From NCBI RefSeq assembly GCF_002854065.1, contig NZ_CP024147.1: 64,000 nt of DNA; one strand, given 5' to 3'. The stretch comes from Escherichia coli. Lineage in GTDB: Bacteria; Pseudomonadota; Gammaproteobacteria; Enterobacterales; Enterobacteriaceae. Under the pieces are notes generated by a model that did not search any database, was not told the origin of the DNA, and was given only the letters and a program-made list of their open reading frames with translations. Shown one piece after another: positions 61,039-61,332 of this stretch. Within the stretch, counting starts at the first letter, position 1, and each line of letters starts with the position of its first letter. A program made the translations under genes and the position numbers.

Positions 61039-61055
61039 TGGCATGATTCTTGTAA
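61039..61055 (+). promoter_or_regulatory. Probable sigma-54 (-24/-12) promoter of pspG
   Basis: TGGCATGATTCTTGTAA resembles TGGCAC-N5-TTGCA about 35 bp upstream of pspG. Confidence 0.55.
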
Positions 61056-61089
61056 TGCCTGCAAGAGATTTCATATTTGGGAGAGCATC

Positions 61090-61332
61090 ATGCTGGAACT
61101 ACTTTTTGTGATTGGCTTTTTTGTCATGTTGATGGTCACCGGCGTTTCGTTGCTGGGCATTATCGCCGCGCTGGTTGTGGCGACGGCCATTATGTTCCTC
61201 GGCGGTATGCTGGCATTGATGATTAAGTTGCTGCCGTGGTTACTCCTGGCGATTGCGGTGGTGTGGGTTATTAAGGCGATTAAAGCACCAAAAGTGCCGA
61301 AATATCAGCGTTATGACCGCTGGCGTTACTAA
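61090..61332 (+). CDS. pspG: Phage shock protein G
   Basis: 80 aa small membrane protein, MLELLFVIGFFVMLMVTGVSLLGIIAALVV... Confidence 0.85.
   Translation: MLELLFVIGFFVMLMVTGVSLLGIIAALVVATAIMFLGGMLALMIKLLPWLLLAIAVVWVIKAIKAPKVPKYQRYDRWRY

What the first reader, a model, noticed from the sequence alone, without database searches (positions are those of the whole stretch)
61039..61332. pspG with an apparent sigma-54 promoter
A -24/-12-type element (TGGCAT-N5-TTGTA) precedes the small membrane protein PspG, consistent with its membership of the PspF/sigma-54 phage-shock regulon.
Basis: partly seen in the sequence, partly recalled or inferred. Interest (0 to 1): 0.15.

Follow-up and report, generated by a model that had tools for sequence, protein, structure and literature searches.

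The report
Known sigma-54 promoter of E. coli pspG
This is the well-studied stress-inducible promoter of the E. coli membrane-stress gene pspG, with its sigma-54 site, PspF activator site and IHF bending site all present and conserved, so the finding is correct but ordinary.

Summary
TGGCAT-N5-TTGTA lies at 61039-61054, 35 nt before the ATG of pspG (61090-61332; Pfam PspG, E=3e-25). The window is the E. coli chromosome (dusA-pspG-qorA-dnaB).

The 17-mer TTGGCATGATTCTTGTA is letter for letter the sigma-54 ChIP-seq site OS40 upstream of pspG in Bonocora et al. 2015, which EcoCyc marks as experimentally confirmed.

- **Matrix score.** A matrix built from the other 134 published E. coli sites scores it 15.0 bits. 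That is the best in the window on either strand and rank 38 of 135.
- **Cross-check of the enhancer.** A matrix built from the enhancer in other species recovers the pspA enhancer of E. coli and nothing else in the window.
- **Conservation.** All elements, and a 66-67 bp spacing from enhancer to promoter, are conserved in about 80 Enterobacterales species.

Side observations:
- The dusA terminator hairpin sits inside the enhancer-promoter spacer and shows covariation.
- The non-consensus T at -12 is conserved.
- The sRNA PspH lies downstream of pspG.

Verdict: supported, already known, low interest.

The parts
60958..60989 (+). PspF enhancer (UAS): TTTTCACCAAAAAGTAGTCAAATTCACCACGC. It holds two TTCACCA repeats 20 bp apart (60960 and 60980), starts 2 nt after the dusA stop codon and lies about -107 to -76 from the predicted start.
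   Evidence: It is 80-99% conserved in 72 non-Escherichia species. A matrix built from it hits the E. coli pspA UAS region (L001 1110-1150) at 13.4 and 12.9 bits, p about 3e-8 per position. The next best hit in the 64-kb window scores -3.6. pspA has the same 20-bp repeat spacing (TTCGCC at 1121, TTCGCT at 1141). PspF binding to the pspG UAS is stated in PMC3709507.
60986..61015 (+). Intrinsic terminator of dusA: a 10-bp G+C-rich hairpin (60986-61011) followed by a T-run. It lies inside the enhancer-promoter spacer, and its 5' arm abuts or overlaps the 3' end of the UAS.
   Evidence: The terminator scan reports 10 pairs, 8 of them G-C, and a 6-nt loop. The RNA fold is -19.1 kcal/mol with z=-2.9. 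In 65 species, 8 of 10 pairs show compensatory double changes and the loop is variable.
61022..61034 (+). IHF core site AATCAATAGATTA, which matches WATCAANNNNTTR. It lies about -43 to -31, directly upstream of the -24 element.
   Evidence: It is an exact consensus match. There are only 7 such matches in 64 kb on both strands, against 2.8 expected. CAA-N4-TTA is conserved at 80-99%, at a fixed 17-18 bp before the GG. IHF is reported to act at psp promoters (PMC3709507). IHF binding at this particular site was not tested here.
61038..61054 (+). Sigma-54 core promoter TTGGCATGATTCTTGTA, with the -24 GG at 61040-41 and the -12 GT at 61052-53.
   Evidence: It scores 15.04 bits, the best in the window and rank 38 of 135. 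It is identical to ChIP-seq site OS40 (FAT 15, EcoCyc confirmed; PMC4591121). It is present in 79 of 80 species. The Salmonella pspG site TGGCATGATTTTTGTAAG is listed among the sigma-54 sites enriched in that study's binding assay (PMC3844500).
61064..61066 (+). Predicted transcription start. 61065 is 12 nt after the -12 T, 19 nt after the motif centre and 25 nt before the ATG.
   Evidence: This is inferred from sigma-54 geometry and from the rule used in PMC4591121 (distance 25 for pspG). It was not mapped here.
61080..61085 (+). Shine-Dalgarno sequence GGAGAG of pspG.
   Evidence: It is 80-99% conserved across species and lies 4 nt before the ATG.
61090..61332 (+). pspG coding sequence (80 aa, small inner-membrane protein).
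   Evidence: ORF list, Pfam PF09583 at E=3.4e-25 and RefSeq annotation.
61389..61499 (+). PspH small RNA overlapping the pspG 3' UTR. It ends at the bidirectional terminator 61468-61490 shared with the convergent gene qorA.
   Evidence: The K-12 annotation lists b4758 at L082 1640-1750, which is window 61389-61499. The terminator scan is. RIL-seq and compensatory mutations show that PspH sponges Spot 42 (PMC5145812). Whether the sigma-54 promoter contributes to PspH is not known; that paper suggests PspH has its own promoter.

Best explanation
This is the enhancer-dependent sigma-54 promoter of E. coli pspG, one of the two PspF-activated promoters of the phage-shock regulon.

**Proposed mechanism**
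1. RNA polymerase-sigma-54 binds TTGGCATGATTCTTGTA (61038-61054) as a closed complex that cannot melt DNA unaided.
2. A PspF hexamer binds the enhancer at 60958-60989, about 66 bp upstream of the -24 GG.
3. IHF bound at 61022-61034 bends the short spacer, so that PspF touches sigma-54.
4. PspF uses ATP hydrolysis to open the promoter, and transcription starts near 61065, 25 nt before the pspG ATG.
5. Without membrane stress, PspA holds PspF inactive. Stress such as secretin pIV or proton-motive-force loss releases it, and pspG is induced about 20-fold.
6. The dusA terminator inside the spacer stops read-through, so pspG expression depends on this promoter.

**Basis**
- Shown here: presence, score, conservation and fixed geometry of all the elements, and the similarity of the enhancer motif to that of pspA.
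- Taken from the literature: sigma-54 occupancy, PspF binding and induction.
- Inferred: IHF binding at this exact site, the exact start nucleotide and the insulating role of the terminator.
For: - The window is E. coli, with pspG annotated at this place, and the protein matches Pfam PspG.
- The 17-mer is identical to ChIP-seq site OS40 for pspG, FAT 15 and EcoCyc confirmed.
- pspG is among the few genes up-regulated on sigma-54 overexpression, and it is attributed to PspF.
- The leave-one-out matrix gives 15.0 bits, the best in the window and rank 38 of 135.
- The sigma-54 motif is present upstream of pspG in 79 of 80 Enterobacterales species.
- The enhancer is 80-99% conserved, and its matrix finds the pspA UAS at p about 3e-8 per position and nothing else in the window.
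- Enhancer-to-GG spacing is 66-67 bp in 73 of 80 species, while GG-to-ATG spacing varies from 49 to 61 in most species. The distant genera have 74-76 or 88 bp, roughly one or two helical turns more.
- The IHF core is a perfect consensus match at a conserved position.
- The terminator hairpin shows covariation.
- No sigma-70-like promoter was found on the + strand upstream of pspG.
- Literature: PspF binds the pspA and pspG UASs; pspG has one UAS and is 20-fold induced; deleting the pspG promoter region alters PspF dynamics (PMC3709507). The pspG promoter has been used in vitro as a sigma-54 promoter and shares -24/-12 elements with pspA (PMC4641871).
Against: - The -12 element is GT, not the consensus GC. 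This costs 3.4 bits, and only 4 of 135 E. coli sites have T there.
- The matrix score alone would arise by chance about 0.5-1 times per 64 kb.
- Only 38 of 80 loci match a relaxed IHF pattern (ATCAN-N4-NT[AGT]) at the conserved position; the others have TTCAA or AACAA in place of ATCAA. About 37 carry the strict core somewhere in the 260 nt upstream.
- The enhancer-to-promoter distance differs from pspA by 13 bp (66 against 79), so the two promoters do not share one geometry.
- The primary paper (Lloyd et al. 2004, J Biol Chem 279:55707) could not be read. The footprint coordinates and mapped start site are therefore not confirmed against it.
Confidence: 0.96

Rival explanations
1. The -24/-12-like motif is a chance match or a non-productive sigma-54 binding site, and pspG is transcribed by read-through from dusA or from a sigma-70 promoter.
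For: A matrix score of 15 bits or more is expected 0.5-1 times per 64 kb by chance. Many sigma-54 sites in E. coli are intragenic and apparently non-productive (PMC4591121). The -12 doublet is non-consensus.
Against: The motif is conserved in 79 of 80 species at a fixed distance from a conserved enhancer. A covarying intrinsic terminator lies between dusA and the promoter. No sigma-70-like site was found on the + strand upstream. pspG is up-regulated on sigma-54 overexpression and is listed as a confirmed promoter.
Confidence: 0.02
2. The conserved block 60958-61015 is conserved only as the dusA 3' end and terminator, not as a PspF enhancer. On this reading pspG is activated from solution or from a different site.
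For: The block starts 2 nt after the dusA stop codon and overlaps the terminator's 5' arm. Sequence conservation alone cannot separate the two roles.
Against: The part upstream of the hairpin (60958-60985) is conserved at the sequence level without any pairing partner. The hairpin, in contrast, varies by compensatory change. The matrix from this block finds the pspA UAS, which has no dusA context, at p about 3e-8 per position. The block keeps a fixed 66-67 bp distance to the promoter. The literature states that PspF binds a pspG UAS.
Confidence: 0.02

Closest known systems
E. coli pspG promoter (pspGp; Lloyd et al. 2004, J Biol Chem 279:55707; ChIP-seq site OS40 of Bonocora et al. 2015, PMC4591121)
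   Same: It is the same locus. The 17-mer core promoter is identical, and the distance from predicted start to ATG is the same 25 nt. The window differs from MG1655 at only 3 positions in 60940-61500, and none lies in the UAS, the IHF core or the core promoter.
   Different: Nothing of substance. One difference from MG1655 (61060, T for A) lies between the -12 element and the predicted start.
E. coli pspA promoter (pspF-pspA intergenic region; Dworkin et al. 1997, Jovanovic et al. 1999)
   Same: Both have TGGCA(C/T)-N5-TTGTA with the rare T at -12. Both have an upstream enhancer with TTC(A/G)CC repeats 20 bp apart that is recognised by the same matrix. Both have an IHF-like site between enhancer and promoter, and both have PspF as activator.
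   Different: The pspA enhancer is described as two UASs, pspG as one, with about 100-fold against 20-fold induction (PMC3709507). The enhancer-to-GG distance is 79 bp in pspA and 66 bp in pspG. The pspA enhancer overlaps the divergent pspF promoter, whereas the pspG enhancer abuts the dusA stop codon and terminator.
IHF-assisted enhancer-dependent sigma-54 promoters in general (for example nifH, glnH)
   Same: The architecture is the same: enhancer, then IHF bend, then -24/-12 core, with activation by an AAA+ enhancer-binding protein.
   Different: The spacer is very short, with the IHF core ending 5 bp before the -24 GG. The spacer also holds the terminator of the upstream gene.

Membership tests
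Sigma-54 (-24/-12) promoter | A GG doublet and a GC doublet exactly 10 bp apart, within TGGCAC-N5-TTGCW | tested here: met
   GG is at 61040-41 and TTG at 61050-52 with the correct spacing. The second doublet is GT, not GC, a deviation found in 4 of 135 bound E. coli sites, including pspA.
Sigma-54 (-24/-12) promoter | A matrix score within the range of experimentally bound sites | tested here: met
   The site scores 15.04 bits. Leave-one-out scores of the 135 sites have a median of 13.9, and this one ranks 38 of 135. It is the best score in the window.
Sigma-54 (-24/-12) promoter | Occupied by sigma-54 in vivo and dependent on rpoN | not testable with these tools
   From the literature only: a ChIP-seq peak with FAT 15 at the identical sequence, and up-regulation on sigma-54 overexpression (PMC4591121).
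PspF regulon (enhancer-dependent psp promoters) | A PspF-binding upstream activating sequence resembling that of pspA | tested here: met
   The matrix from the conserved pspG element hits L001 1110-1150, the pspF-pspA intergenic enhancer region, at 13.4 and 12.9 bits. About 1.5e-4 such hits are expected in that locus, and there is no other hit in the window. Physical binding is from the literature only.
PspF regulon (enhancer-dependent psp promoters) | An IHF site between the enhancer and the core promoter | tested here: met
   AATCAATAGATTA at 61022-61034 is an exact match to WATCAANNNNTTR, and its position is conserved. IHF binding itself was not tested.
PspF regulon (enhancer-dependent psp promoters) | Induction by Psp-inducing stress that requires pspF | not testable with these tools
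   From the literature only (PMC3709507, PMC3068692, PMC2763126).
PspG protein family (Pfam PF09583) | A full-length match to the family model above the curated cut-off | tested here: met
   88.6 bits against a cut-off of 25, with residues 1-64 aligned to model positions 1-64 of 64.

The most novel reading that the evidence does not exclude
Two details may not have been described explicitly.

1. The dusA intrinsic terminator is built into the 66-67 bp enhancer-promoter spacer of pspG. It has been kept there, with compensatory changes and fixed length, across Enterobacterales. One stretch of DNA would then serve as an RNA terminator, as a spacer of fixed length and helical phase for PspF-IHF-sigma-54 looping, and as an insulator against read-through.

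2. The non-consensus T at -12 (GT in 75 of 80 species) is a selected signature of PspF-dependent promoters that tunes closed-complex behaviour.

Neither changes what the element is.
Probability: 0.3. Interest if true: 0.25.

Novelty: already known. Interest (0 to 1): 0.06.

Why it matters
It matters little as a discovery. The pspG promoter was characterised in 2004, mapped by ChIP-seq in 2015, and is used as a model sigma-54 promoter in vitro.

The value here is as a positive control. A reader without tools identified a real sigma-54 promoter, and the comparative data give a clean phylogenetic footprint of all four elements (enhancer, terminator, IHF site, core promoter) with strict spacing.

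The result also carries a caution. A sigma-54 matrix alone gives about one hit of this strength per 64 kb, so context and conservation are what make such a call reliable.

Tried and rejected
- **Primary paper.** I tried to read Lloyd et al. 2004, but it is not held. Footprint and start-site coordinates therefore rest on secondary citations and on geometry.
- The first null calculation used the wrong index (61039 instead of 61038) and gave a meaningless score; it was redone. The first regular expression for the spacing analysis had one base too many and matched nothing; it was fixed.
- **Rfam.** A scan of 60800-61700 found only weak, sub-threshold resemblance of the pspG/qorA terminator hairpin to ctRNA_p42d (21 bits against a gathering score of 50). 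I rejected this as a generic hairpin. PspH has no Rfam match.
- **Other high matrix hits.** The window has hits at 56273 (+) with 13.6 bits, 47633 (-) with 13.3 and 23944 (+) with 12.4. None is in the published high-stringency list, which for this part of the chromosome names only zraP, zraS and pspG. I treated them as chance.
- **Expected zraS promoter.** From the MG1655 coordinates I expected the zraS promoter near the window start. It is not among the top hits, so the window does not line up with MG1655 that far upstream. I did not pursue this.
- **Dyad symmetry in the enhancer.** The matrix hits pspA on both strands, which suggests partial symmetry. I did not resolve half-site orientation.

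Full report
**What is there**

The region reads ...TTAAATCAATAGATTATTTTTGGCATGATTCTTGTAATGCC.... The ORF 61090-61332 (+) follows a GGAGAG Shine-Dalgarno sequence. Its 80-aa product matches Pfam PF09583 (PspG) over the whole model, with E=3.4e-25.

The flanking ORFs are a Dus-family dihydrouridine synthase upstream and a convergent zinc-type quinone oxidoreductase downstream. A 601-bp query is 100% identical to E. coli chromosomes and is present in 5,425 of 5,426 complete genomes, annotated dusA, pspG and qorA. Between 60940 and 61500 the window differs from MG1655 at three positions only: 61060, 61129 and 61245.

**Sigma-54 matrix test**

[quoted passage not shown] 2015 (PMC4591121). I removed pspG, built a log-odds matrix and scanned the whole window on both strands.

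- TTGGCATGATTCTTGTA at 61038-61054 scores 15.04 bits.
- This is the highest of 127,968 positions.
- It ranks 38 of 135 among leave-one-out scores of genuine sites, whose median is 13.9.
- The only costly deviation is T instead of C at the -12 doublet, which costs 3.4 bits.

The matrix alone is not conclusive. Random sequence with the window's first-order (nucleotide-to-nucleotide) statistics gives about 1.1 sites of this strength per 64 kb, and the i.i.d. expectation is 0.5. For a 200-nt upstream region on one strand the expectation is 8e-4.

The same 17-mer is listed in that paper as site OS40. Its downstream gene is pspG, the distance from predicted start to gene is 25 nt, occupancy is FAT 15, and EcoCyc marks it as experimentally confirmed. 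In the window this places the predicted start at about 61065.

**Upstream activator and IHF sites**

I fetched 80 pspG loci from as many Enterobacterales species. dusA-pspG-qorA synteny holds in 79 of 80 for dusA and in 78 of 80 for qorA; the exceptions L030 and L061 are the two shortest loci fetched.

A sigma-54 motif lies upstream of pspG in 79 of 80. The exception is Citrobacter werkmanii, which has TTGTCATG, a single G-to-T change in the GG doublet.

An alignment of the upstream regions gives a clear footprint in the 72 non-Escherichia sequences:
- A block at 60958-60989 (TTTTCACCAAAAAGTAGTCAAATTCACCACGC) is 80-99% conserved.
- Next comes a hairpin with conserved stems and a variable loop.
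- Then ATCAA-N4-TTA.
- Then the core promoter.
- Finally the Shine-Dalgarno sequence.

The conserved block contains two TTCACCA repeats 20 bp apart. The E. coli pspF-pspA intergenic region has TTCGCC and TTCGCT with the same 20-bp spacing.

A matrix built from 63 distinct versions of the pspG block, scanned over a 2.2-kb K-12 segment spanning the 3' end of puuE to the start of pspB, hits only 1110-1150. It does so on both strands, at 13.4 and 12.9 bits. The next best position there scores -10.8, and the best non-self position in the 64-kb window scores -3.6. The i.i.d. probability is about 3e-8 per position, or about 1.5e-4 for that locus.

From memory of Dworkin et al. 1997 and Jovanovic et al. 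1999, the pspA UAS I and II span about -80 to -126. This corresponds to about 1113-1159 in that locus, so the hit is on the known enhancer.

[quoted passage not shown] It also states that pspG has one UAS and is induced about 20-fold (PMC3709507).

The IHF core AATCAATAGATTA (61022-61034) matches WATCAANNNNTTR exactly. That pattern occurs 7 times in the window on both strands, against 2.8 expected. About 37 of 80 species carry the strict core somewhere in the 260 nt upstream. A relaxed pattern (ATCAN-N4-NT[AGT]) is found at the conserved position, 17-18 bp before the GG, in 38 of 80. Most of the remaining Enterobacteriaceae loci keep (A/T)(A/T)CAA-N4-TTA there.

**Geometry**

The distance from the proximal enhancer half (GTCAAATTCACCA) to the GG is 66 bp in 56 species and 67 bp in 17. 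The distance from GG to ATG ranges from 49 to 61 in the same set.

The distant genera have longer enhancer-to-GG distances: 74-76 bp in Biostraticola and Brenneria, and 88 bp in Yersinia and Rahnella. These are about one and two helical turns more. This is what a looping mechanism with a face-of-helix constraint predicts. In pspA the equivalent distance is 79 bp.

**The terminator in the spacer**

Between the enhancer and the IHF site lies ACGCCCTGCG-CACCGT-CGCGGGGCGT followed by TTTT (60986-61015).

- The terminator scan calls it.
- It folds at -19.1 kcal/mol, with z=-2.9 against shuffles.
- In 65 distinct sequences, 8 of 10 pairs keep pairing through changes on both sides.

It is therefore a genuine RNA structure, and the obvious reading is that it is the dusA terminator. 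It would block read-through into pspG, which fits the tight, activator-dependent control of the gene. The insulating role is inferred, not shown.

**Rivals**

A chance or silent sigma-54 site, with pspG expressed by read-through or from a sigma-70 promoter, is contradicted on four counts:
- conservation of the motif;
- the terminator;
- the absence of a sigma-70-like site on the + strand;
- published expression data.

The idea that the conserved block is merely the dusA 3' end is contradicted by its match to the pspA enhancer, which has no dusA context. It is also contradicted by its sequence-level conservation, which contrasts with the structure-level conservation of the hairpin.

**Comparison with what is known**

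This is the pspG promoter itself. It was described by Lloyd et al. 2004, which I could not read. It was mapped by ChIP-seq in E. coli and in Salmonella, where the site is TGGCATGATTTTTGTAAG. It has been used as a model sigma-54 promoter in vitro, where it is noted that pspA and pspG share identical -24 and -12 elements (PMC4641871).

All membership features that can be computed are met. In-vivo occupancy and dependence on rpoN and pspF rest on the literature.

**Verdict**

Interest is low.

The minor residue is the set of side observations:
- a terminator embedded in a length-constrained enhancer spacer;
- the conserved rare T at -12, which is GT in 75 of 80 species, whereas C occupies that position in 125 of 135 E. 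coli sites;
- the PspH sRNA downstream.

Noticed in passing
window 61389-61499 (+): The K-12 annotation places the small RNA PspH (b4758) in the pspG 3' UTR, ending at the bidirectional terminator 61468-61490 shared with qorA. It is reported to be an Hfq-dependent sponge of Spot 42 (Spf), possibly with its own promoter (PMC5145812). Rfam has no model for it.
   Followed up: partly
window 60986-61015 (+): The dusA intrinsic terminator lies inside the pspG enhancer-promoter spacer. Its 5' arm abuts or overlaps the last bases of the PspF UAS. In 65 species, 8 of 10 stem pairs show compensatory changes, and the total spacer length stays at 66-67 bp.
   Followed up: yes
window 61053 (the -12 position of the core promoter): The non-consensus T (TTGT instead of TTGC) is kept in 75 of 80 species. 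Among the 135 bound sigma-54 sites of E. coli, only pspA, pspG, ygeW and one antisense site have T here. That pspA and pspG share their -12 and -24 elements is stated in PMC4641871, but its conservation and any functional meaning were not examined.
   Followed up: partly
L025 1449-1465 (Citrobacter werkmanii NBRC 105721): This is the only locus of 80 in which the -24 GG is altered (TTGTCATGTTTCTTGTA). The enhancer, terminator and IHF site are intact. It may be a real variant or a draft-assembly error.
   Followed up: no
L014 and L031 (Salmonella enterica subsp. arizonae and diarizonae); L076-L081 (Yersinia, Rahnella, Biostraticola, Brenneria): The leader between the sigma-54 promoter and the pspG ATG is much longer in these lineages: 83-84 nt from the GG in the two Salmonella subspecies, and 74-205 nt in the distant genera, against 49-61 elsewhere. 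The diarizonae site has a consensus TTGCT at -12 and scores 20.1 bits. What the extra leader contains was not examined.
   Followed up: no
window 56273-56289 (+), 47617-47633 (-), 23944-23960 (+): These are the next-best sigma-54 matrix hits in the window (13.6, 13.3 and 12.4 bits). None is among the published high-stringency ChIP-seq sites, and scores like these are expected by chance at about this rate.
   Followed up: no
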